This document shows, in pieces, positions 8,219-42,251 of a stretch of DNA of 51,691 bases. The notes under the pieces are model-generated. The model saw only the letters and a program-made list of their open reading frames with translations. It was not told where the DNA came from and did not search any database. Position 1 is the stretch's first letter, and the number at the start of each line of letters is the position of its first letter. Origin of the DNA: a phage; sequence record OZ346160.1; one strand, given 5' to 3'. Both the position numbers and the translations under genes were made by a program.

Positions 8219-8586
8219 ACTACAATGAGATTGCAAGAATGGCTACGGCTGGGATTAACTTTTTCAGCGACGCTAACGGTATGTTTAAGTGCATCACGCA
8301 GCAGGGAGGGGTTGAGATTATCGGAGGAGAGGAAGTTACCAAGCCGGAGATTTCAGTGATGATAAAGGGGCTTGTTAGATCTCCGAGGACTAGAGAGGTT
8401 GACGGTGAAACAATCCGAGTAACCGACAAGTTGGGGATATTCACCAATGAAACTGAGATCAAAAATGGTTATCAGATTGAAATTGATGGCGAACGTTATG
8501 TTGTCGTTGAAGCAAGACCAGTCAGGCAGACTAACATCACGGCGGCTTATCGTCCGATATTAAGGAGGATTGCTGTGCATGGCTGA
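8206..8586 (+). CDS. head closure / head-tail joining protein (putative)
   Basis: 126 aa; overlaps neighbours in coupled arrangement. Confidence 0.4.
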
Positions 8587-9022
8587 TAATTATAAGATCA
8601 GGGAATTTCACGGTGATATAAGCAGGTGGATTGATTCAGTAAGCAGCGGCCTTGTTGATTGCGTTGAAATGTTCGCGACAAACGTCCACGAGGATCTTGT
8701 AAATCGCTCGCCAGTTGATACGGGCCGATATAAAGCCAACTGGCAGATAACAGCAAACAAGCCGCCGCTATATGCGCTCAACCAATACGATCGCGATGGT
8801 AGTAAAACCATTGCAGAAGGCAAGCGAGCAATATATGCAATCATGCGTGGCGGTGGCGCGGTGCGGTCAATCTATTTTTCAAACATGCTCATTTACGCCA
8901 ACGCGCTTGAATACGGTCATTCAAAACAAGCGCCGTCCGGCGTACTTGGAATCGTGGCGGTAAAGCTGCGATCTTATATGGCTAAGGCAATAAAGGATTC
9001 GAGGGCAAAAAATGCACTATGA
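8579..9022 (+). CDS. tail component, HK97 gp10-like (putative)
   Basis: Start taken at MADNYK; size and position typical. Confidence 0.4.
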   Translation: MADNYKIREFHGDISRWIDSVSSGLVDCVEMFATNVHEDLVNRSPVDTGRYKANWQITANKPPLYALNQYDRDGSKTIAEGKRAIYAIMRGGGAVRSIYFSNMLIYANALEYGHSKQAPSGVLGIVAVKLRSYMAKAIKDSRAKNAL

Positions 9023-14711: not shown

Positions 14712-15442
14712 TGATTAGTGCAAAAATTAAACTTGAAATAATGCAGCACGTTAAAGAGGAATACCCTAAAGAGGCTTGCGGCGTCATAACTCAAAAATCA
14801 CGGGTACAGAAATATCACCGCATAACCAACGTGCATGACGATCCAGAAAATCATTTTGAAATGGACGCCGTAGAATACGCTGAATCGCTCGACAAAGGCG
14901 AATTAATCGCGGTGGTGCATTCCCATTGCGGGGATGGTGCTAGTACGATACCGAGCGCGCACGACTCATGTATGTGCGATGAAATGGGTGTGTCGTGGAT
15001 TATAGTGTCATGGCCCGAAGGTGATATGAGAATTGTCGAGCCGCAGGAGAGGCCGCTTATCGGTCGCCCGTGGTCGCTTGGGTCGTTCGATTGCTGGGGT
15101 CTTATCATGGCGTGGCATAAACAGCACGGAGTAGTATTGAATGACTTCCGAAAGCCTTACGAGTGGTGGAAGTCAGAATATGGTGAAAATCTTTACCAAG
15201 ATAATTATTTGAAAGAGGGATTTGTTGAAACTAACGAGCCTCCAAAACCGGGTGATATGGTGATTATGCAACTATCATCTCCAGTCTGGAATCATGCGGG
15301 GATTTATTTGGGTAACAACCAGCTATTACATCATGCGTTTGGAAAGCTATCTCGCATCGACTTGTATTCTGGATGGTATCAGGAGCACACTGTAAAAATT
15401 TGTCGACATAAGGATCTGAAATATGACATTGAAAGTAATTAA
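14711..15442 (+). CDS. tail assembly protein (lambda K-like; JAB/MPN metalloprotease + NlpC/P60 domains)
   Basis: Start at MISAKI; JAMM-like motif HSHCGDGASTIPSAHD; C-terminal Cys/His region. Confidence 0.7.
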   Translation: MISAKIKLEIMQHVKEEYPKEACGVITQKSRVQKYHRITNVHDDPENHFEMDAVEYAESLDKGELIAVVHSHCGDGASTIPSAHDSCMCDEMGVSWIIVSWPEGDMRIVEPQERPLIGRPWSLGSFDCWGLIMAWHKQHGVVLNDFRKPYEWWKSEYGENLYQDNYLKEGFVETNEPPKPGDMVIMQLSSPVWNHAGIYLGNNQLLHHAFGKLSRIDLYSGWYQEHTVKICRHKDLKYDIESN

Positions 15443-16019
15443 GTTATCTGGTTCCCTGGGGCGTAGATTTGGCGTCTTTCACAAAATGGCGGTTGACTCA
15501 TACCCCGAAGCAATACGCGCATTATCTTCCCAGGTTGAAGGATTCAAAGACTACATGCAAAGCGAAGTAGGATCGCGAATGAAGTATGCTGTATTCGTTG
15601 ATGGAAAAAACGTTGGTCAGCATGATGAAAAATCATGGAAGTGCGCGCGAGAGGTTCGAATAGTTCCTGTTCCAACTGGTTCTAAGTCAGGCGGCCTGTT
15701 CAATGTTGTTTTTGGTGCTGTAATTATGGCTACTGCGTTCATTACTGGCGGTGCAAGCCTGGCGGCTATGGGCGCTTTTGCATCTTCCGCATTTATGATG
15801 GGTGGTGCTATCGCGCTTGGCGGTGTCATGCAAATGATCTCACCGCAGCAGGGAGGAATGAAACTGCAAAGCCAATCAGCGGAAAACAAGCCTTCTTACG
15901 CTTTCGGCGGTGCAGTAAATACCACGGCGGCAGGTTATCCGGTTCCGTTGCCATATGGATATAGGACAGTCGGCGGCGCGATCTGGTCGGCTGGCAGCTA
16001 CGCAGAGGACAAAGCATAA
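15423..16019 (+). CDS. tail assembly protein (lambda I-like)
   Basis: 198 aa, hydrophobic Gly/Ala-rich central segment; overlaps K-like gene. Confidence 0.6.
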   Translation: MTLKVIKLSGSLGRRFGVFHKMAVDSYPEAIRALSSQVEGFKDYMQSEVGSRMKYAVFVDGKNVGQHDEKSWKCAREVRIVPVPTGSKSGGLFNVVFGAVIMATAFITGGASLAAMGAFASSAFMMGGAIALGGVMQMISPQQGGMKLQSQSAENKPSYAFGGAVNTTAAGYPVPLPYGYRTVGGAIWSAGSYAEDKA

Positions 16020-16063
16020 ATAGCACAATATGTTAAAGCGAAAACGGATTTTCGCTTTACAAT
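16019..16063 (+). promoter_or_regulatory. degenerate cassette copy upstream of HNH endonuclease
   Basis: AATAGCACAATATGTTAAAGC overlapping I-like gene stop; hairpin GCGAAAA..TTTTCGC; TACAAT at 16058..16063 (motif positions 40-45). Confidence 0.45.
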
Positions 16064-16080
16064 TAATTAAGGAGGTGATC

Positions 16081-16557
16081 ATGTGGCGTGATATTTTTTA
16101 TTATAATGACGGTAAGTTATTTTGGGCTGTAGACGTAGGAAGAAGGATAAAGAAAGGAAGTGAGGCAGGAAGCGTAAGCAAAAGCAAGAAGAGTGGAGAA
16201 AGGGTTAGAATATCAATTGATGGAGAAAGATACTACAGGAGCAGGATAGTTTGGGAAATTCATAATGGAGAAATACCGCATGGAATGCAAGTTGATCACA
16301 TAGATCACAACACAATGAACGACAATATTTCAAACTTAAGACTTGTTAGAATGAGTGTTAACAACAAGAATAAGTCGCTTTACAGGAACAGCAAGACGGG
16401 AATTACTGGGGTAAACTTTAGTCGCGGAAAATGGATTGCAAGAGCAAAGATTGATGGTGTTAGGCATGAATTTTACTTTGATTCATTTCAGGATGCGGCA
16501 GAAAAGAGGATAGAGATTGAAGTTTTAAACAAATTCCACATAAACCACGGAAAGTAG
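16081..16557 (+). CDS. HNH homing endonuclease with AP2-like DNA-binding domain
   Basis: Start at MWRDIF with AAGGAGG RBS; HNH motif HGMQVDHIDHNTMNDNISNLRLV; AP2-like GITGVNFSRGKWIARAKIDG; A-rich codon usage differs from neighbours. Confidence 0.75.
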   Translation: MWRDIFYYNDGKLFWAVDVGRRIKKGSEAGSVSKSKKSGERVRISIDGERYYRSRIVWEIHNGEIPHGMQVDHIDHNTMNDNISNLRLVRMSVNNKNKSLYRNSKTGITGVNFSRGKWIARAKIDGVRHEFYFDSFQDAAEKRIEIEVLNKFHINHGK

Positions 16558-16561
16558 ATTT

Positions 16562-16586
16562 AACCAGCATTGCGCTGGTTTTTTTG
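16562..16586 (+). terminator. rho-independent terminator after HNH gene
   Basis: AACCAGC-attgc-GCTGGTT followed by T7. Confidence 0.55.
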
Positions 16587-16598
16587 TGCCTTTATAAT
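16570..16598 (+). promoter_or_regulatory. putative sigma70 promoter for J-like gene
   Basis: TTGCGC - 17 nt - TATAAT (16593..16598), overlapping the HNH terminator hairpin. Confidence 0.3.
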
Positions 16599-16634
16599 GT
16601 GCAAACCAAGAAACAGCACAAAGGGTTAAAAGTC

Positions 16635-19600
16635 ATGGCTAAATATATGATAAGCGGCAGTAAGGGCGGAAGCAAAAAGCCATACGTGCCAAAAGAGATG
16701 GAAGATAACCTGATCTCGATAAACAAGATTAAAGTTTTGCTGGCTGTATCTGATGGCGAGTGCGATCCAGATTTCACGTTGCGCGATCTTTATCTTGATG
16801 ATGTTCCGGTTATTGCCAGCGATGGCACTGTTAACTATGAGGGTGTAACGGCTGAATATAGACCGGGCACACAGACGCAAGATTACATCCAGGGGTTTAC
16901 TGACACATCAAGCGAGGTGACAGTTTCGCGAGATATTACAATAGACAATCCCTATATTATCTCTGTAACAAACAAAAATCTTTCTGCAATCAGAATCAAG
17001 ATTCTGATGCCAACTGGCATAAAGCAGGAGGATAACGGCGATCTGGTAGGTGTTAGTGTCACATATGCCGTTGATATGGCGGTTGATGGCGAATCTTACA
17101 AAGAAGTTTTGCTGGACACCATTAACGGTAAAACGAGAACAGGTTACGACCGCAGTCGCCGTATCGACTTGCCGAAGTTCAATGATCGCGTATTGTTCCG
17201 CGTTCGACGAGTTACGCCAGACAGCACATCTTCAAAGGTGACTGATAAAATCAAACTGCAAAGTTACGCTGAGGTTGTGGATGCAAAATTCCGTTATCCT
17301 CTGACTGGCCTTGTATTTGTAGAATTTGACAGCGAATTGTTTCCTACACAAATCCCTAACATTTCTATAAAAAAGAAATGGAAGATTATTAATGTGCCAA
17401 GCAACTATGATCCAATATCAAGAGAATATCATGGGTCATGGGATGGGACTTTTAAGAAAGCGTGGTCAAATAATCCTGCATGGGTTCTTTATGATCTGGT
17501 GACGAATCAGCGTTATGGACTTGACCAGCGAGAGTTAGGAATACAGATCGACAAGTGGAGCTTATACGAGGCAGGCGTTTACTGTGATCAGAAAGTTCCA
17601 GACGGTAAGGGCGGTACAGAGCCTCGCTACCTATGCGATGTGGTGATTCAGAATCAAGTTGAGGCTTATCAGCTAATCCGTGACATTTGCTCAATCTTTC
17701 GCGGAATGAGCTTTTGGAATGGTGAGAGCTTATCAATCGTGATTGATAAGCCGCGCGATCCATCATACGTGTTTACTAATGAAAACGTCATCAACGGTGA
17801 TTTTCAGTACACAACCGCAAGCGAAAAAAGCATGTACACGCAGTGTAACGTGACGTTTGACGACGAACAAAACATGTATCAGCAGGACGTAGAGGGGGTT
17901 TTTGATACTGAGGCGGCATTACGATTTGGATACAATCCAACAAGCATTACAGCGATCGGGTGTACACGCAGGAGCGAAGCGAATCGTCGCGGTCGGTGGG
18001 TTTTGAAAACAAACCTTAGAAGCACTACTGTAAACTTTGCTACCGGACTAGAGGGGATGATTCCATCAATAGGTGATGTGATTGCTATCGCTGATAATTT
18101 TCATAGCAGCAACCTAACGTTAAACCTATCGGGCCGAGTGATGGAAGTTTCAGGATTGCAGGTTTTCGTTCCGTTTAAGGTTGATGCTCGTCCTGGTGAT
18201 TTTATTATCATCAACAAGCCGGACGGCAAGCCAGTTAAGCGCACGATTTCAAAGGTGAGCGCAGACGGAAAAACCATTGAGTTAAATATTGGCTTTGGTT
18301 TTGATGTTAAGCCTGATACTGTTTTTGCGATTGACCGTACTGACCTTGCGTTGCAGCAATACGTTGTGACAACTATCAGCAAGGGTGATGATGAAAACGA
18401 GTTTACCTTTTCAATCACGGCTGTGGAGTACGATCCGAACAAATACGACGAGATTGATTACGGCGTAAACATTGATGACAGGCCAACTTCAATTGTTCAG
18501 CCTGACGTGATGGTAGCGCCTGAGAACGTGCAGATCTCATCTTATTCTCGCGTTGTGCAGGGTGTCAGCGTTGAAACTATGGTTGTGTCGTGGGAAAAAG
18601 TGCCTTATGCGTCACTGTATGAAATGCAATGGCGAAAGGGTGATGGTAACTGGCTGAATACGCCGCAGACCGCTAACAAAGAGATAGAGGTAGAAGGAAT
18701 TTATTCAGGCAACTACCAAGTAAGGGTGAGATCCGTTTCTGCAAGCGGTAACACTTCCCCGTGGTCAAAGATTGCAACCGCAACCCTGACAGGTAAAGTT
18801 GGCGAGCCAGGAGCGCCGATTAATCTTACAGCTTCTGATAATGAAGTTTTTGGCATTCGTGTCAAATGGGGTATGCCGGAAGGGTCAGGAGATACGGCTT
18901 ACATCGAGCTTCACCAATCGCCAGATGGAACGGTGGAAAACTCAAGTTTGCTTACGCTGATCCCGTATCCTCAATATGAGTATTGGCATGGCACGTTACC
19001 AGCTGGGCAAGTTGTATGGTATAGAATCCGTAGCGTTGACAGGATCGGCAATGTTTCCGGCTGGACTGACTTTGTTCGCGGCATGGCGTCAGATGATGTT
19101 GATTCTGTTTTAGGCGACATTCTGGACAAGATTTTTGATACCGAAGCTGGTCAAGAAATCAAAGAGAACGCCATAGACAGCGCCAACAAAATCAAAGACC
19201 AGGCGCAATCAATCATTCAGAACGCTTTGGCAAATGATTCTGATGTTAGAGTTATGAAAAAGGAGAATGGGAAACGGAAAGCTGAATTTAGGCAATCTAT
19301 ACAGATGATTGCTGATGAAACAGAAGCAAGGGTGACAGCGTTAACGCAATTAAAAGCAGAATTTGATGAGGAGATAACTAGCGAAGTAACAAGACTTGAT
19401 CAGGCGATCGCAACAGAATCAGAAACGCGAGCAACAGCTATAGAGGAATTAAAATCACAGATTGGTGATGATATACAGGGGCAGTTAACTAGAGTTGAGG
19501 AAGCGATTGCAAGCGAAACAGAGGCGCGCGTTTCTGCCGATACTGCATTAACGGCAAAGTTTGGTGATCTTGAGTCGGCACTTACTGAAAAACTTGATTC

Positions 19601-20060
19601 ATGGGCTGGCGTTGATGGAGTTGGCGCACAGTACGCAATGAAACTTGGATTGACATACAACGGGCAGAAGTACAGCGCTGGTATGGTGATGCAGCTTTCG
19701 CAGGGTTCATCCGGCCTTATTTCGCAGATTTTGTTTGATGCGAACAGGTTCGCTATCATGACAAGTTCGACTGGAGGGTCGTATACATTGCCTTTTGTGG
19801 TAGAAAATAACCAAGTTTTCATTAACAGTCTGTTAGTGAAAAGCGGATCAATCACAAACGCCATGATCGGTAACTTCATCCAATCAAACAATTACGTTTG
19901 GAATCAAACAGGATGGAGGCTGGATAAAAACGGCACGTTTGAAAATTATGGTTCTACTCCTGGAGAAGGGGCCATGAAAATGACAAACGAAACGATCAGC
20001 GTTAGGGATGTAAACGGAGTTTTGCGTGTTCAGATTGGTAGGCTGACTGGTACGTGGTAA
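16635..20060 (+). CDS. tail tip / host specificity protein (lambda J-like central fibre)
   Basis: 1141 aa from MAKYMISG; size, position after I-like gene, fibronectin III-like segments in middle. Confidence 0.8.
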   Translation: MAKYMISGSKGGSKKPYVPKEMEDNLISINKIKVLLAVSDGECDPDFTLRDLYLDDVPVIASDGTVNYEGVTAEYRPGTQTQDYIQGFTDTSSEVTVSRDITIDNPYIISVTNKNLSAIRIKILMPTGIKQEDNGDLVGVSVTYAVDMAVDGESYKEVLLDTINGKTRTGYDRSRRIDLPKFNDRVLFRVRRVTPDSTSSKVTDKIKLQSYAEVVDAKFRYPLTGLVFVEFDSELFPTQIPNISIKKKWKIINVPSNYDPISREYHGSWDGTFKKAWSNNPAWVLYDLVTNQRYGLDQRELGIQIDKWSLYEAGVYCDQKVPDGKGGTEPRYLCDVVIQNQVEAYQLIRDICSIFRGMSFWNGESLSIVIDKPRDPSYVFTNENVINGDFQYTTASEKSMYTQCNVTFDDEQNMYQQDVEGVFDTEAALRFGYNPTSITAIGCTRRSEANRRGRWVLKTNLRSTTVNFATGLEGMIPSIGDVIAIADNFHSSNLTLNLSGRVMEVSGLQVFVPFKVDARPGDFIIINKPDGKPVKRTISKVSADGKTIELNIGFGFDVKPDTVFAIDRTDLALQQYVVTTISKGDDENEFTFSITAVEYDPNKYDEIDYGVNIDDRPTSIVQPDVMVAPENVQISSYSRVVQGVSVETMVVSWEKVPYASLYEMQWRKGDGNWLNTPQTANKEIEVEGIYSGNYQVRVRSVSASGNTSPWSKIATATLTGKVGEPGAPINLTASDNEVFGIRVKWGMPEGSGDTAYIELHQSPDGTVENSSLLTLIPYPQYEYWHGTLPAGQVVWYRIRSVDRIGNVSGWTDFVRGMASDDVDSVLGDILDKIFDTEAGQEIKENAIDSANKIKDQAQSIIQNALANDSDVRVMKKENGKRKAEFRQSIQMIADETEARVTALTQLKAEFDEEITSEVTRLDQAIATESETRATAIEELKSQIGDDIQGQLTRVEEAIASETEARVSADTALTAKFGDLESALTEKLDSWAGVDGVGAQYAMKLGLTYNGQKYSAGMVMQLSQGSSGLISQILFDANRFAIMTSSTGGSYTLPFVVENNQVFINSLLVKSGSITNAMIGNFIQSNNYVWNQTGWRLDKNGTFENYGSTPGEGAMKMTNETISVRDVNGVLRVQIGRLTGTW

Positions 20061-20065
20061 AATCA

Positions 20066-20090
20066 AAGCGGGGCGCTTGCCCCGCATTTA
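20066..20090 (+). terminator. terminator-like hairpin after J-like gene
   Basis: GCGGGGCG-ctt-GCCCCGC with weak T-run. Confidence 0.4.
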
Positions 20091-20103
20091 TGGAGGTTTA
20101 ATA

Positions 20104-20409
20104 ATGGCTGAGTATGGAATTTCAACGTGGGATGCAAACGGTAATTATAATAACTATGGGATCAAACCTGTTTCAGTTGTTGGTGTTATAAGCCTTTCCG
20201 CTGGTCAGACAAGCGGATCGTGGAGTTTTAGCATTCCAAGTGGTTTTAAGGTTGGGTATGTTGTTTCACTTGATGAGGGCGCTAGAGGGGTTGGGAGGGA
20301 AATAGTGGCATCTGGAAACACAATAAGAATTAGTCCTACATCGTCAGTTGGTCCAAATAGGTATTCTTCCTCAAAGTGCGAGTTAGTTGTTTTTCTTGAG
20401 AGGGCTTAA
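20104..20409 (+). CDS. hypothetical tail-associated protein (MAEYG family)
   Basis: Start MAEYGISTWD with GGAGG RBS; N-terminus paralogous to next gene. Confidence 0.4.
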   Translation: MAEYGISTWDANGNYNNYGIKPVSVVGVISLSAGQTSGSWSFSIPSGFKVGYVVSLDEGARGVGREIVASGNTIRISPTSSVGPNRYSSSKCELVVFLERA

Positions 20410-20410
20410 A

Positions 20411-21049
20411 ATGGCTGAATATGGAGCAATGTTATCTTTACCAAATGGGAATCCATTTATCACACCAAAATCAACGCCATTTTGCTTATATGGCAAGTAC
20501 ACTTATTCATCTTCTGGCACTTCTGCCTATCATAGCGCAAGCGCAAATATACCATTAAATCAATCTTATCCATGTATGGCATTTATAAAAACAACAAACA
20601 CACAGCAGCCAACCGCATTAATAGCTTACAGGAACGGTGGCAACATTTATGTAAACGGAGGCAATCCATACGGGCAATCATTTACAATGACTGTTTATAT
20701 ATTTGCTATCTTCCCTCAAACTCTACCCAAATATGGTATGGCAATATGGGATGAAAGCGGAAAGTTGGTTTTAACTAATGAGAGCAGGGTACTAACAGAC
20801 CTTGTAACAATTGGTACTCCTGGATCTTCTGGTGGGACGAATATAGATCAGACATTGTCTGGTTCTTATGCTGTTTGCCCATCAAGGCTTGGTGCGGTTA
20901 TAGGTATGGGTGCGTCTGACATATACACATCGTGCAGGTATAATGGTTCAAGCACAAGGATAAGTGCGGCAAGGACAACTCCAGGAACAGGATCTATAAC
21001 AAACAACGGAAATTCAATAATTGCAATAAAGACTGATATTTACGACTAA
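20411..21049 (+). CDS. hypothetical tail-associated protein (MAEYG family)
   Basis: Start MAEYGAMLS; contains internal repeat of the MAEYG/WD..G motif (KYGMAIWDESGK); bidirectional terminator downstream. Confidence 0.45.
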   Translation: MAEYGAMLSLPNGNPFITPKSTPFCLYGKYTYSSSGTSAYHSASANIPLNQSYPCMAFIKTTNTQQPTALIAYRNGGNIYVNGGNPYGQSFTMTVYIFAIFPQTLPKYGMAIWDESGKLVLTNESRVLTDLVTIGTPGSSGGTNIDQTLSGSYAVCPSRLGAVIGMGASDIYTSCRYNGSSTRISAARTTPGTGSITNNGNSIIAIKTDIYD

Positions 21050-21051
21050 TT

Positions 21052-21083
21052 AAAAAAAGGGGCTTTTGCCCCTTTGTTTTTAT
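21052..21083. terminator. bidirectional terminator between convergent tail and lipoprotein genes
   Basis: A-run, GGGGC-tttt-GCCCC, T-run. Confidence 0.6.
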
Positions 21084-21311
21084 TTAAAGACTGCAATCAG
21101 CGTTTTTAAAGTTATCAATGCTTACCCACTGAAAATTAAATGGATAGCCAGCCTTAACAAGAGTGCGATCGCCAACTCGTTTTGCCCCAAAGATAGCAAC
21201 TGAATACTGCATTCCGCTATTTTCATAAATAGCCGTGCATTCACGTTTAGGCATATTTGCGCAACCAGTCAGCGCAACGGCTGCGATTAAAACGGCAATT
21301 AACTTTTTCAT
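21084..21311 (-). CDS. small lipoprotein, Cor-like superinfection exclusion candidate
   Basis: 75 aa; signal peptide with lipobox LTGC; convergent with tail genes, as for cor genes that follow tail fibre genes in T1/phi80-type phages; assignment by position and lipoprotein character only. Confidence 0.5.
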   Translation of the reverse strand: MKKLIAVLIAAVALTGCANMPKRECTAIYENSGMQYSVAIFGAKRVGDRTLVKAGYPFNFQWVSIDNFKNADCSL

Positions 21312-37788: not shown

Positions 37789-37833
37789 ATTATGCCAGGT
37801 TTTTACACCTGGCTTTTAACAAAAAGTGCTATT
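37789..37833 (-). promoter_or_regulatory. cassette copy
   Basis: Consensus motif overlapping methyltransferase stop; hairpin CCAGG..CCTGG; CATAAT at 40-45. Confidence 0.55.
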
Positions 37834-38539
37834 TTGAGTTTGACTCAAAGACGGCGCGAGCAAATCCGCGCGGAGTGAGGGAGCGGATCATCTTTGTGCG
37901 CGATGACTTACCGCCAGTTTTGGCCCAGCCTGGATTATCTTTGTCTTCCTCTTTCGGCAGGATTAAAGCGCGCGGAGGAATAACAAAGCCGTTGCCAGTC
38001 CAGAGGCACGTTTTCTTAAAATAGCGATCCCGTGCCGGAATAATATCAGGGAAGTCGGGATGTTTATCATCTTCCGGCAGATAGCCAGCGTAATCGCACG
38101 GATGGAACGTATAATCAGGCTTTCGCCATAACGTTGACAACTTGCCAACCGGATTTTCGATCATGTAAGGAACACCGAAATAATCAGCTATATCAGCCGC
38201 GATTCTGCAAGTGTCGGCGGCCTCATCCTGGAAAGATGGATTCTCAAGGCGTTTTTTGGCCCAATGGCGAGATCCGCTATTTGCAAGGTCGGTGCATGGT
38301 GGGAAGGCCATAATAAAATCAGGATTGCCCCACTCATTATTGATTGCCTTAACATAAAAAGCATCGTCAATCCAGACGTTAACGTATTCGATATTCTCAT
38401 GCTGTATGCGCACTGACTGGTAATCACCGTGATCGCCGCCGTCAGCATTAAAGCAAATGCACTTATAGCCATTATCAGCCCAATCTTTAACGGCTTTACC
38501 AGATCCATCAAATAGGGAGAATATTAAACCTTTATACAT
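37829..38539 (-). CDS. DNA (cytosine-5)-methyltransferase
   Basis: Start at MYKGLIFSLFDGSG (motif I FxGxG); PC motif FPPCTDLA (catalytic Cys); ENV motif MIENPVG. Confidence 0.75.
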   Translation of the reverse strand: MYKGLIFSLFDGSGKAVKDWADNGYKCICFNADGGDHGDYQSVRIQHENIEYVNVWIDDAFYVKAINNEWGNPDFIMAFPPCTDLANSGSRHWAKKRLENPSFQDEAADTCRIAADIADYFGVPYMIENPVGKLSTLWRKPDYTFHPCDYAGYLPEDDKHPDFPDIIPARDRYFKKTCLWTGNGFVIPPRALILPKEEDKDNPGWAKTGGKSSRTKMIRSLTPRGFARAVFESNSK

Positions 38540-40484: not shown

Positions 40485-40529
40485 AATGTACAGGAATACG
40501 AGGATTTAGTTTTAACAAAAAGTGCTATT
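40485..40529 (-). promoter_or_regulatory. cassette copy
   Basis: Consensus motif overlapping stop of 40529..40792; leader nearly identical to 39988..40032 copy. Confidence 0.5.
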
Positions 40530-40792
40530 TAGTCCAGGAATTCGATTTCACGCTCTCCAGTTAACGGATCCACAAGCCAGAATCCGAGCGCTTCGCCGTG
40601 AACACCGCCATAGAATCCAAGCGCAGTCAGATCTTCACCTTTAACGAATACCAGATTCCCGCTACGGCTTACGTGAGAAACGTTAACGATAACCGGAAAT
40701 GTGCGATCCTTAAATGCAGGCCGCAGGGCGTAACATCCGTTATTGAGCAAACGTGCTTTGCGCTTAACTGGAATAGGTGCATTAATTTTCAT
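40529..40792 (-). CDS. hypothetical protein
   Basis: 87-aa ORF with AAGGAG RBS. Confidence 0.45.
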   Translation of the reverse strand: MKINAPIPVKRKARLLNNGCYALRPAFKDRTFPVIVNVSHVSRSGNLVFVKGEDLTALGFYGGVHGEALGFWLVDPLTGEREIEFLD

Positions 40793-41789: not shown

Positions 41790-41834
41790 ACTATACCAGG
41801 TTATCCCGATCAGCTTTTAACAAAAAGTGCTATT
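41790..41834 (-). promoter_or_regulatory. cassette copy
   Basis: Consensus motif overlapping stop; hairpin GGGATAAC..GTTATCCC; TATAGT at 40-45. Confidence 0.55.
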
Positions 41835-42136
41835 TATTGTTTTGCGTGGCGCTCAATGTAAGCGCGGATAGTTTCAGCGGTGTCTTTCGCAGATCCAAAC
41901 GTGCCCTTTACATGGCGAGCGTCGCGGTAAGCCTGGAAGAATTTACGCGCGATATTTGCAAACATTGCACCAGTAACGCGAGCGTCGCCAAAATTTGTTT
42001 CAATGGCATTGCTGATGCCGTCCTGGAATTCATGCTCAGTCATGAACAGTTCAGCCATTTCTGCGGTTTCGAACAGGTCAGCCAGTGCTGCCATATTCTC
42101 GTGGTCTTTAGCGGTGAACAGGTTCATGTTAATCAT
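41834..42136 (-). CDS. hypothetical protein
   Basis: 100-aa ORF; first gene of - strand array, downstream of cassette 42177..42221. Confidence 0.5.
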   Translation of the reverse strand: MINMNLFTAKDHENMAALADLFETAEMAELFMTEHEFQDGISNAIETNFGDARVTGAMFANIARKFFQAYRDARHVKGTFGSAKDTAETIRAYIERHAKQ

Positions 42137-42176: not shown

Positions 42177-42221
42177 AATGTACCCGATCAGGTGGCCTGA
42201 GTTTTAACAAAAAGTGCTATT
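42177..42221 (-). promoter_or_regulatory. cassette copy (first of - strand array)
   Basis: Consensus motif; TACATT at 40-45. Confidence 0.5.
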
Positions 42222-42251
42222 TGACGGTTATCGCCAGGATTGCGATCGAAA

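What the first reader, a model, noticed from the sequence alone, without database searches (positions are those of the whole stretch)
16019..16598. Free-standing HNH-AP2 homing endonuclease inserted between tail genes I and J
A 158-aa HNH endonuclease with AP2-type DNA-binding domain sits between two genes that are normally adjacent. It has its own degenerate cassette and terminator, and A-rich codon usage unlike its neighbours. This looks like a mobile selfish element; a TTGCGC-17-TATAAT promoter overlapping its terminator may restore expression of the J-like gene.
Basis: partly seen in the sequence, partly recalled or inferred. Interest (0 to 1): 0.55.

Follow-up and report, generated by a model that had tools for sequence, protein, structure and literature searches.

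The report
Mobile HNH-AP2 endonuclease between tail genes
A small selfish nuclease gene sits between two tail genes of a T1-like coliphage, is missing or decayed in most close relatives, and has clearly spread recently; this is a clean but ordinary example of a well-known kind of phage mobile element.

Summary
A 158-aa ORF (16081-16557, +) lies between the lambda-I-like (15423-16019) and J-like (16635-20060) tail genes of a Warwickvirus (Drexlerviridae). It has an intact HNH_3 nuclease core resembling I-HmuI, and a C-terminal domain with an AP2 fold. The AP2 call holds at family-profile and structure level, not by Pfam on this sequence alone.

Comparative data support mobility. Most relatives have a 74-83-nt I-J spacer with no gene. 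Ten genomes carry a 542-bp cassette that is 99.6-100% identical, while their flanks differ by 3-6%. Identity between carriers ends about 50 nt left and 30 nt right of the cassette. Carriers are scattered in flank trees. Two independent deletion remnants exist.

The terminator and the TTGCGC-17-TATAAT box are ancestral to the empty junction, so they do not compensate for the insertion. The cassette does carry its own promoter-like module: a 20-nt motif repeated 12 times in the genome, then 20 nt, then TACAAT.

Best explanation: a free-standing homing endonuclease that cuts or nicks the empty junction close to the insertion point. This is a new member of a known kind, of modest interest.

The parts
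15423..16019 (+). Tail assembly gene I (context). Two synonymous sites in its last codons, 16007 (G) and 16010 (C), are perfectly linked to presence of the insert.
   Evidence: Pfam Lambda_tail_I E=9e-21. At 16007/16010, all 11 insert- or remnant-bearing genomes in the table have G/C and all 10 empty-site genomes have A/T; the two metagenome copies read later also have G/C.
16021..16562 (+). The inserted cassette (542 bp). In empty-site relatives it is replaced by about 5 nt (AAAAT).
   Evidence: Alignment of insert-bearing, remnant and empty alleles. No terminal inverted repeats or target-site duplication. Nucleotide diversity is 0.0018, against 0.028 and 0.060 in the flanks.
16018..16037 (+). 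Copy of a genome-wide 20-nt motif (AAATAGCAC-N5-KGTTAAA) at the left end of the cassette; inferred upstream promoter element.
   Evidence: 12 copies in the window against 0.02 expected. In 9 other copies a -10-like hexamer follows at 19-20 nt, and every copy has a same-strand ORF downstream, 39-81 nt away in the promoter-type copies.
16034..16059 (+). Perfect 11-bp inverted repeat (TAAAGCGAAAA/TTTTCGCTTTA) lying between the motif and the -10-like box.
   Evidence: I1; fold. Comparable hairpins sit in the same spacer of several other motif copies.
16058..16063 (+). -10-like hexamer TACAAT, 20 nt after the motif. It is the inferred promoter for the endonuclease gene.
   Evidence: Read from the sequence. 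Same geometry as the other motif copies and as the independent endonuclease cassette in L024.
16071..16075 (+). Shine-Dalgarno GGAGG, 5 nt upstream of the ATG. It is hit by 2 of the 5 segregating sites in the cassette.
   Evidence: G16074T in mar001J1, tonn and ityhuna; G16075A in brachmannus.
16081..16557 (+). HNH-AP2 endonuclease ORF, 158 aa.
16231..16365 (+). HNH_3 nuclease core (aa 51-95). D72, H73, N85 and N94 are conserved.
16390..16530 (+). AP2-type DNA-binding domain (about aa 104-150): three beta strands and one helix.
16562..16586 (+). Intrinsic terminator of the I-J junction, in the variant form linked to the insert (AACCAGCATTGCGCTGGTT plus T-run). It differs from the empty-site terminator at 16566, 16569 and 16576; 16566 and 16576 form a compensatory pair.
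   Evidence: An exact-match scan found this variant at an I-J junction only together with the insert or its remnant.
16570..16598 (+). TTGCGC-17-TATAAT promoter-like box upstream of J. It is ancestral and was not brought by the insert.
   Evidence: Present in empty alleles. A TATAAT-like box follows the terminator in nearly all relatives.
16611..16630 (+). Second copy of the 20-nt motif, in the J leader 4 nt upstream of the J start codon. It is conserved in relatives.
   Evidence: (D3).
16635..20060 (+). J-like tail tip / host-specificity gene (context).
   Evidence: Pfam FNIII-A_GpJ, Phage-tail_3 and Phage_Tail_Tip; PHROG 31.

Best explanation
The window is a Warwickvirus (a T1-like coliphage of the Drexlerviridae). 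At 16021-16562 it carries a free-standing homing endonuclease cassette. The cassette consists of a phage-type promoter-like module, a Shine-Dalgarno sequence, and a 158-aa protein. The protein has an I-HmuI-like HNH nuclease core fused to an AP2-type DNA-binding domain.

Shown: the cassette is optional, site-specific, compositionally foreign, nearly invariant across diverged genomes, and decays by deletion.

Inferred mechanism: during mixed infection the enzyme recognises the insert-free I-J junction, that is, the 3' end of I plus the GC-rich terminator. It nicks or cuts the DNA within a few tens of bases of the insertion point. The break is repaired by recombination from the insert-bearing genome, which copies the cassette and only a very short stretch of flank. 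The phage encodes proteins annotated as exonuclease VIII and Erf-like annealing protein, which could do the repair.

Insert-bearing genomes would be immune for two reasons. The site is split by the cassette, and it carries five linked substitutions. Two are synonymous changes in I. Three are in the terminator, including a compensatory stem pair that removes the CCGCC run.

Once spread stops being useful the gene decays. The evidence is weakened Shine-Dalgarno variants and two independent deletions of about 310-320 nt that remove the nuclease core.

For: Optional and site-specific. The empty 78-nt junction is present in close relatives. 40 of 44 IMG/VR relatives have a 74-83-nt spacer. The full cassette is in only 12 of 158 matching GenBank records, which represent 8 phages, with one place per record. 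One more copy is in a metagenome contig.

Recent spread. Among 10 carriers there are 5 segregating sites in the 543 cassette positions, against 129 in 1085 flanking positions (Fisher p=5e-18). Diversity is 0.0018 in the cassette and 0.028 / 0.060 in the left / right flanks. Pairwise identity between carriers ends a median of 49 nt to the left and 28 nt to the right of the cassette. Carriers are not monophyletic in neighbour-joining trees of either flank. They come from Denmark, USA, Germany and sea water, and from at least two ICTV species.

Linked changes. Five SNPs within 14 nt of the junctions are perfectly linked to the insert.

Decay. tonn and ityhuna carry a 320-nt deletion. A gut-metagenome contig carries an independent 308-nt deletion. 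Both remove the HNH core. The dead tonn/ityhuna copy sits in a near-identical block of about 11 kb, unlike the intact copies.

Recurrent colonisation. A 39%-identical HNH-AP2 gene occupies the same junction on the opposite strand in another lineage. Another family member lies between other tail genes in tonn.

Known mechanism. Intronless homing and HNH-AP2 homing endonucleases are described in PMC2988022 and PMC10448857.
Against: No cleavage, nicking or biased inheritance has been measured, so nuclease-driven spread is inferred from population patterns only.

These phages are highly mosaic everywhere; empty-site genomes also differ by 2-5% and share haplotypes patchily. General recombination plus a sweep could therefore mimic part of the pattern.

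The very short shared flanks differ from T4 free-standing endonucleases, whose cleavage sites lie hundreds of bases from the gene and which drag long co-conversion tracts (PMC2988022).

The five linked SNPs could simply be remnants of the original donor sequence rather than immunity changes.

Two of five cassette polymorphisms weaken the Shine-Dalgarno sequence. Some copies may therefore be poorly expressed.

The AP2 assignment fails Pfam on the sequence itself.
Confidence: 0.75

Rival explanations
1. Passive passenger. The gene is an inactive or barely active relic. It entered the junction once and has since been moved between genomes only by the phages' own frequent homologous recombination, perhaps helped by a local selective sweep. 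Its nuclease plays no part.
For: Flanks are mosaic in all genomes, empty ones included. The phage encodes proteins annotated as exonuclease VIII and Erf-like recombinase downstream. Shine-Dalgarno-weakening variants and two deletion remnants show that decay is under way. Shared flanks are far shorter than in experimentally studied T4 intronless homing.
Against: The ORF is intact with all catalytic residues in 10 of 13 copies. Cassette diversity is 15-30 times lower than the adjacent DNA, with sharp edges on both sides in nearly every pair. A neutral passenger should have aged with its flanks. The one clearly dead copy seen twice travels in a long 11-kb block, not as a tight cassette.
Confidence: 0.15
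2. Domesticated nuclease with a function for the phage. Candidates are degrading competitor or host DNA, acting as a DNA-binding regulator through the AP2 domain, or serving as a packaging-associated HNH. In this reading selection on the phage maintains the gene, not selfish spread.
For: The gene has a promoter-like module of the phage's own type. HNH proteins serve terminases in some phages, and AP2 domains have been recruited as regulators elsewhere (own knowledge; PMC10448857 discussion). Marker exclusion by HNH endonucleases has been reported in Skunavirus (PMC12724721 abstract).
Against: The gene is absent from about three quarters of close relatives and from all 44 IMG/VR relatives, all of which have otherwise the same tail module. 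It is deleted twice independently. It lies about 13 kb from the portal gene and is not adjacent to packaging genes. Competitor exclusion would operate by the same cleavage as homing, so it is not a truly separate mechanism.
Confidence: 0.08
3. Transposon, insertion sequence or intron-borne element, rather than a free-standing endonuclease gene.
For: The insert is discrete (542 bp) and compositionally foreign.
Against: There are no terminal inverted repeats, no target-site duplication and no transposase. The insert lies in an intergenic spacer, not inside a gene. There is no Rfam intron or other RNA family hit in 15000-17500 at E<=1. Every full-length copy found is at this one junction.
Confidence: 0.02

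Closest known systems
HNH-AP2 homing endonucleases (Magnani, Sjolander & Hake 2004; the 'IPA-HNH' genes of ICP1-like and other phages, Barth et al. 2023, PMC10448857)
   Same: The architecture is the same: an N-terminal HNH nuclease plus a C-terminal AP2 DNA-binding domain of about 160 aa. They occur in phages and tend to sit next to structural or other essential genes.
   Different: This protein hits the canonical Pfam HNH_3 model strongly, whereas the ICP1 genes were described as too divergent for that profile. Its nearest relatives outside the near-identical Warwickvirus copies are below 60% identical, about 43% in the best full-length matches seen. No activity data exist.
I-HmuI (PDB 1u3e), the intron-encoded HNH nicking endonuclease of Bacillus phage SPO1
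   Same: It is the best structural and profile match for the N-terminal beta-hairpins and the HNH core. Cleavage close to the insertion site, as in intron-encoded enzymes, fits the very short shared flanks seen here.
   Different: I-HmuI is encoded in a group I intron and uses helix-turn-helix / NUMOD-type C-terminal DNA-binding modules (own knowledge). This gene is free-standing and ends in an AP2 domain. Whether it nicks or makes a double-strand cut is unknown.
Free-standing mob (HNH) and seg (GIY-YIG) endonucleases of phage T4: 'intronless homing' (Edgell, Gibb & Belfort 2010, PMC2988022)
   Same: The location is intergenic, between conserved genes. Presence varies among related phages, promoter arrangements matter, and the element interacts with nearby terminators and promoters (compare mobE between nrdA and nrdB).
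   Different: T4 enzymes cut hundreds to thousands of bases from their own gene and co-convert long tracts. Here carriers share only about 30-50 nt beyond the cassette. The DNA-binding domain also differs.
I-HmuI-like HNH endonucleases of lactococcal Skunavirus phages (Yu et al. 2025, PMC12724721)
   Same: Their number and genomic location vary among closely related siphophages. They cluster by insertion site, and marker-exclusion activity has been reported (abstract).
   Different: The host and phage family differ. I read only the abstract, so the domain comparison was not made.

Membership tests
HNH / His-Me finger endonuclease (Pfam HNH_3, I-HmuI-like) | Significant match to the family profile above the curated cut-off | tested here: met
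   PF13392 scores 57.5 bits against a cut-off of 24.8, E=1e-15, over aa 51-95.
HNH / His-Me finger endonuclease (Pfam HNH_3, I-HmuI-like) | Catalytic His and metal-binding Asp/Asn residues present | tested here: met
   D72, H73, N85 and N94 are invariant columns in the 20-sequence alignment. They align with the DH...N...N residues of I-HmuI.
HNH / His-Me finger endonuclease (Pfam HNH_3, I-HmuI-like) | Structural similarity to a solved family member | tested here: met
HNH / His-Me finger endonuclease (Pfam HNH_3, I-HmuI-like) | Metal-dependent DNA cleavage or nicking | not testable with these tools
   Needs purified protein and a substrate.
AP2 DNA-binding domain (PF00847) | Match of the sequence itself to the Pfam AP2 profile | tested here: not met
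   No AP2 hit for the whole protein or for its C-terminal 63 aa, even at E<=10.
AP2 DNA-binding domain (PF00847) | Homology detectable at family-profile level | tested here: met
   8 of 20 aligned homologues hit PF00847 (best E=2.6e-6). The family profile hits the WRI1 AP2 domain (E=1.6e-4) and TEM1 (E=0.017) in the PDB.
AP2 DNA-binding domain (PF00847) | Three-stranded antiparallel sheet packed on one helix | tested here: met
AP2 DNA-binding domain (PF00847) | Sequence-specific binding to (GC-rich) DNA | not testable with these tools
   Binding to the GC-rich terminator of the empty junction is my inference only.
Free-standing homing endonuclease gene (intronless homing) | Gene lies in an intergenic spacer between genes that are adjacent in relatives, and is not in an intron or intein | tested here: met
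   no Rfam hit.
Free-standing homing endonuclease gene (intronless homing) | Presence/absence polymorphism with a precise empty site among close relatives | tested here: met
   78-nt empty junction against a 615-nt occupied junction, with the flanks aligned base by base.
Free-standing homing endonuclease gene (intronless homing) | Signature of horizontal spread: element much younger than its flanks, and patchy distribution | tested here: met
   Diversity 0.0018 against 0.028 / 0.060, Fisher p=5e-18. Carriers are not monophyletic in the flank trees.
Free-standing homing endonuclease gene (intronless homing) | Cleavage site distant from the gene, with long co-conversion tracts (the T4 seg/mob pattern) | tested here: not met
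   Shared identity beyond the cassette has a median of 49 nt (left) and 28 nt (right). Only 5 SNPs within 14 nt are linked. Later recombination could have eroded longer tracts.
Free-standing homing endonuclease gene (intronless homing) | Site-specific cleavage of the element-free allele, and over-transmission in mixed infection | not testable with these tools
   Requires in vitro cleavage assays and phage crosses.
Transposable element / insertion sequence | Terminal inverted repeats, target-site duplication, transposase | tested here: not met
   None at the cassette ends. The only ORF is the HNH gene.
Terminase-associated HNH (HK97 gp74 type) | Adjacent to terminase or portal genes and conserved in all relatives | tested here: not met
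   The portal gene is at 1640-2932, about 13 kb away. The gene is absent from most relatives.

The most novel reading that the evidence does not exclude
The endonuclease may be a terminator-targeting homing enzyme. Its AP2 domain would read the GC-rich hairpin of the I-J terminator in insert-free phages. It would cut within about 50 nt of its own insertion point, which is intron-like and unlike the T4 free-standing enzymes. Carriers would escape through a compensated terminator variant (C-G changed to A-T in the stem, plus a loop change) that keeps termination but abolishes recognition. The cassette would also travel with its own copy of a Drexlerviridae-specific promoter architecture, a 20-nt upstream motif followed by 20 nt and a -10 box, which so far as I could find has not been described.
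Probability: 0.3. Interest if true: 0.45.

Novelty: new member of a known kind. Interest (0 to 1): 0.3.

Why it matters
It matters mainly as a tidy natural example. One junction shows empty, freshly invaded, expression-weakened and deleted states of a homing endonuclease gene, among sequenced and culturable coliphages that infect E. coli K-12. Homing, co-conversion length and immunity could therefore be tested directly by crosses.

It also marks a recombination-prone point immediately upstream of the host-range gene J. That is relevant to how tail modules are exchanged in T1-like phages. It warns against using this region for phylogeny.

The promoter-like motif noticed at the cassette's left end may be of wider use for annotating transcription units in Drexlerviridae.

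Tried and rejected
- Pfam AP2 and NCBIfam on the single sequence: no hit.
- Sequence search of the PDB with the single protein: nothing. Only the family profile worked.
- IMG/VR scan for close relatives of the protein: only homologues of 38-41% identity at other sites.
- Exact-match scan for the variant terminator: no hit in IMG/VR. Three hits in metagenome contigs. One is a full copy, one is a new remnant, and one is an unrelated bacterial terminator downstream of an unidentified gene.
- Generic sigma-70 scan of 15300-17000: no promoter called. Neither the TTGCGC-17-TATAAT box nor the motif-N20-TACAAT module is a canonical -35/-10 promoter.
- The hairpin after the I stop codon as a significant RNA structure: z=-1.0, not significant on its own.
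- Rfam at E<=1 for 15000-17500: nothing.
- Terminal repeats or target duplication: none. I first read the 10-nt direct repeat TCGCTTTACA (16052 / 16375) as the cause of the metagenome remnant's deletion. Both copies are retained there, and the junction is a 3-nt microhomology.
- Literature: no paper found on this gene or junction in Warwickvirus. A search for the motif string returned only unrelated papers among the 10 of 182 hits listed.
Full report
**What is there.** The window is a T1-like coliphage of the genus Warwickvirus (Drexlerviridae, Tempevirinae). Region 15000-18000 is 94-96% identical to many such phages (taxonomy). The tail module runs tape measure, M, L, K, I, J by Pfam and PHROG assignment. 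Gene I ends at 16019 and J starts at 16635. Between them lies an ORF of 158 aa (16081-16557, + strand), with a GGAGG Shine-Dalgarno sequence 5 nt upstream. A longer 175-aa reading from the ATG at 16030 is annotated in two GenBank relatives. That ATG has no ribosome-binding site and lies inside a regulatory motif. The homologue alignment fits the 158-aa start.

- Pfam AP2 does not hit this sequence even at E<=10.
- 8 of 20 homologues do hit it.
- The family profile hits the WRI1 AP2 domain at E=1.6e-4.
- The C-terminal 50 residues are predicted as three strands plus a helix.

**Composition.** The ORF has 37.5% GC and 38.4% A. The window means are 44.7% and 29.3%. The GC value is in the lowest 2% and the A value in the top 0.2% of all 477-nt windows.

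**Empty, occupied and decayed junctions.** Many close relatives have only 78 nt between I and J. Of 44 IMG/VR contigs encoding an I homologue, 40 have a 74-83-nt spacer. In GenBank, 12 of 158 matching records carry the full insert. They represent 8 phages: JLBYU10, JLBYU01, atuna, orkinos, brachmannus, mar001J1, Phunderstruck and Kalemo. Each has one place per record. A metagenome contig (L070) holds one more full copy.

Base-by-base comparison puts the insert at 16021-16562. It replaces about 5 nt of the empty site. There are no terminal repeats and no target duplication.

Two decayed versions exist.
- tonn and ityhuna share a 320-nt deletion (16175-16494) that frameshifts the ORF after residue 31.
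- A human-gut contig (L069) has an independent 308-nt deletion (about 16064-16371). It removes the ribosome-binding site, the start codon and the nuclease core.
- Both deletions join at 3-nt microhomologies.

**Evidence for recent horizontal spread.** Among the ten full copies, the 543 cassette positions have 5 segregating sites. The 1085 flanking positions have 129 (Fisher p=5e-18). Nucleotide diversity is 0.0018 in the cassette, 0.028 in the 543 nt to the left and 0.060 in the 543 nt to the right.

The change is abrupt. Between pairs of carriers, perfect identity extends a median of only 49 nt to the left and 28 nt to the right of the cassette. Carriers are interleaved with empty-site phages in neighbour-joining trees of both flanks. 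They were isolated in Denmark, the USA, Germany and from sea water, and they include at least two ICTV species.

The dead tonn/ityhuna remnant behaves differently. It sits inside a block of about 11 kb that is nearly identical between those two phages. That is what ordinary descent would give. I read this contrast as the strongest computational argument that the intact cassette moves on its own, and is not merely carried by general recombination.

**Linked flanking changes.** Five substitutions are perfectly associated with the insert or its remnants.
- 16007 (G versus A) and 16010 (C versus T), both synonymous, in the last codons of I.
- 16566 (A versus C), 16569 (A versus C) and 16576 (T versus G) in the terminator.

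Sites 16566 and 16576 pair with each other in the hairpin stem. The stem is therefore preserved (CCAGC/GCTGG instead of CCCGC/GCGGG), while the CCGCC run is lost. An exact-match scan found this terminator variant at an I-J junction only next to the insert or its remnant.

Just outside these sites, polymorphisms such as 16590 and 15977 occur in both classes. If homing is the mechanism, the cleavage site must lie inside this window of about 40 nt. The five changes are either immunity mutations or the minimal donor tract. This step is inference.

The terminator and the TTGCGC-17-TATAAT box are not contributions of the insert. The empty junction of close relatives reads ...TAAAAAAATACCCGCCTTGCGCGGGTTTTTTTGTGCATTTATAATG..., with the same hexamers and spacing. 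A GC-rich hairpin, a T-run and a TATAAT-like box are visible in the spacers of relatives whose I protein is only about 77% identical. The insert landed upstream of this ancestral terminator-promoter module and uses it as its own 3' end. Nothing needed to be 'restored' for J. The box fails a generic sigma-70 scan because its -35 hexamer matches only 3 of 6 positions. Its conservation suggests function, but that is untested.

**The cassette's own promoter-like module.** The 20 nt that follow the I stop codon (16018-16037, AAATAGCACAATATGTTAAA) are one of 12 copies of a motif, AAATAGCAC-N5-KGTTAAA. The expected number in shuffled sequence is 0.02. In nine other copies a -10-like hexamer (CATAAT, TATAAT, TACATT or TATAGT) follows at 19-20 nt, often across a GC-rich hairpin. 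An ORF on the same strand starts 39-81 nt after the motif. Those ORFs include a DNA methyltransferase gene and several small genes of unknown function. A tenth copy precedes the portal gene, but its TATAAT lies only 6 nt after the motif.

The endonuclease copy has the same geometry: motif, a 20-nt spacer containing a perfect 11-bp inverted repeat, TACAAT (16058-16063), then the ribosome-binding site and the ATG. An unrelated lineage (L024 and L025) carries a different HNH-AP2 gene, 39% identical, at the same I-J junction on the opposite strand. It also has motif, 20 nt, TACATT, AGGAG and ATG. Both cassettes therefore appear to bring a promoter of the phage family's own type. Its timing and its factor dependence are unknown.

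**Signs of attenuation.** Two of the five polymorphic cassette sites fall in the 5-nt Shine-Dalgarno core: GGAGG to GGATG in mar001J1 and in the tonn/ityhuna remnant, and GGAGG to GGAGA in brachmannus. By my own rough estimate the chance of this is below 1e-3. It fits selection against expression of a nuclease, or the first step of decay.

**Comparison with what is known.** HNH-AP2 homing endonucleases are a described family. Barth et al. (PMC10448857) cite Magnani et al. 2004 and report such genes beside structural and other essential genes in many phages. Free-standing endonucleases and intronless homing are textbook for T4 (PMC2988022). A recent survey of Skunavirus reports the same kind of variable, site-clustered I-HmuI-like genes with marker-exclusion activity (PMC12724721).

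The present gene fits this kind. The near-identical gene is already annotated 'HNH endonuclease' in GenBank relatives. The one respect in which it departs from the T4 paradigm is the extreme shortness of the shared flanks. That points to cleavage close to the insertion site, as in intron-encoded enzymes, or to heavy later recombination. I found no paper on this particular junction.

**Verdict.** The main interpretation, a mobile selfish endonuclease gene, is supported as far as sequence comparison can go. The promoter and terminator details are corrected. It is a new member of a known kind, and interest is modest (0.3).

The rival that the cassette is only a passive passenger of general recombination cannot be excluded without a cleavage assay or a cross. 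I give it about 0.15.

Noticed in passing
window 1564, 16018, 16611, 30663, 37815-37834(-), 40511-40530(-), 41816-41835(-), 42203-42222(-), 43545, 44008, 45001, 47744: A 20-nt motif, AAATAGCAC-N5-KGTTAAA, occurs 12 times in the window against 0.02 expected. In 10 copies a -10-like hexamer lies 19-20 nt downstream, often across a GC hairpin, and a same-strand ORF starts 39-81 nt after the motif. It looks like a phage-specific promoter architecture without a canonical -35 hexamer. I found no description of it.
   Followed up: partly
L024 4594-5158 and L025 (IMG/VR contigs; I protein 83% identical): A different HNH-AP2 endonuclease (154-167 aa, 39% identical to the window's) occupies the same I-J junction on the opposite strand. 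It has its own motif-N20-TACATT-AGGAG-ATG module. The junction is therefore a recurrent landing site.
   Followed up: partly
L060 (phage tonn) 1515-2024; equivalent to about window 8500-9000: tonn carries another member of the same HNH-AP2 family (E=8e-49 to the family profile) between tail-completion genes. It is not annotated in that interval in any of the other 15 annotated relatives fetched, and a profile search of the window found no second family member. The flanks there are only about 75% identical between tonn and ityhuna.
   Followed up: partly
L068 (phage BEK12A) 9021-9205: BEK12A has a 185-nt I-J spacer of unrelated sequence, with its own terminator (GACCGTGCATTGCACGGTC plus T-run) and no annotated gene. 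It is a third kind of allele at this junction.
   Followed up: no
window 16880-17280 (N-terminal part of J): Among insert-bearing genomes, diversity here is 0.064-0.080, against 0.020-0.042 among empty-site genomes. This may reflect extra recombination next to the endonuclease gene, or it may be a sampling effect.
   Followed up: no
window 19250-21100: The 3' end of J and the genes after it are a swapped module. The window has two + strand ORFs (20077-20409 and 20387-21049). Phages B1.2 and PeterMerian have + strand genes at the corresponding place, whereas the annotated insert-bearing relatives have three - strand genes there, some labelled membrane or outer-membrane protein. Identity drops to 70-85% from about 19250.
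   Followed up: no
L067 (phage XY3) 8424-9147: Gene I is annotated as two overlapping ORFs and the region is about 127 nt longer than in relatives. This could be a frameshift or duplication in I, or a sequencing error.
   Followed up: no
window 16074-16075: Two independent substitutions weaken the endonuclease gene's Shine-Dalgarno sequence in relatives (G16074T in mar001J1, tonn and ityhuna; G16075A in brachmannus). They are 2 of only 5 variable sites in the 543-bp cassette.
   Followed up: yes
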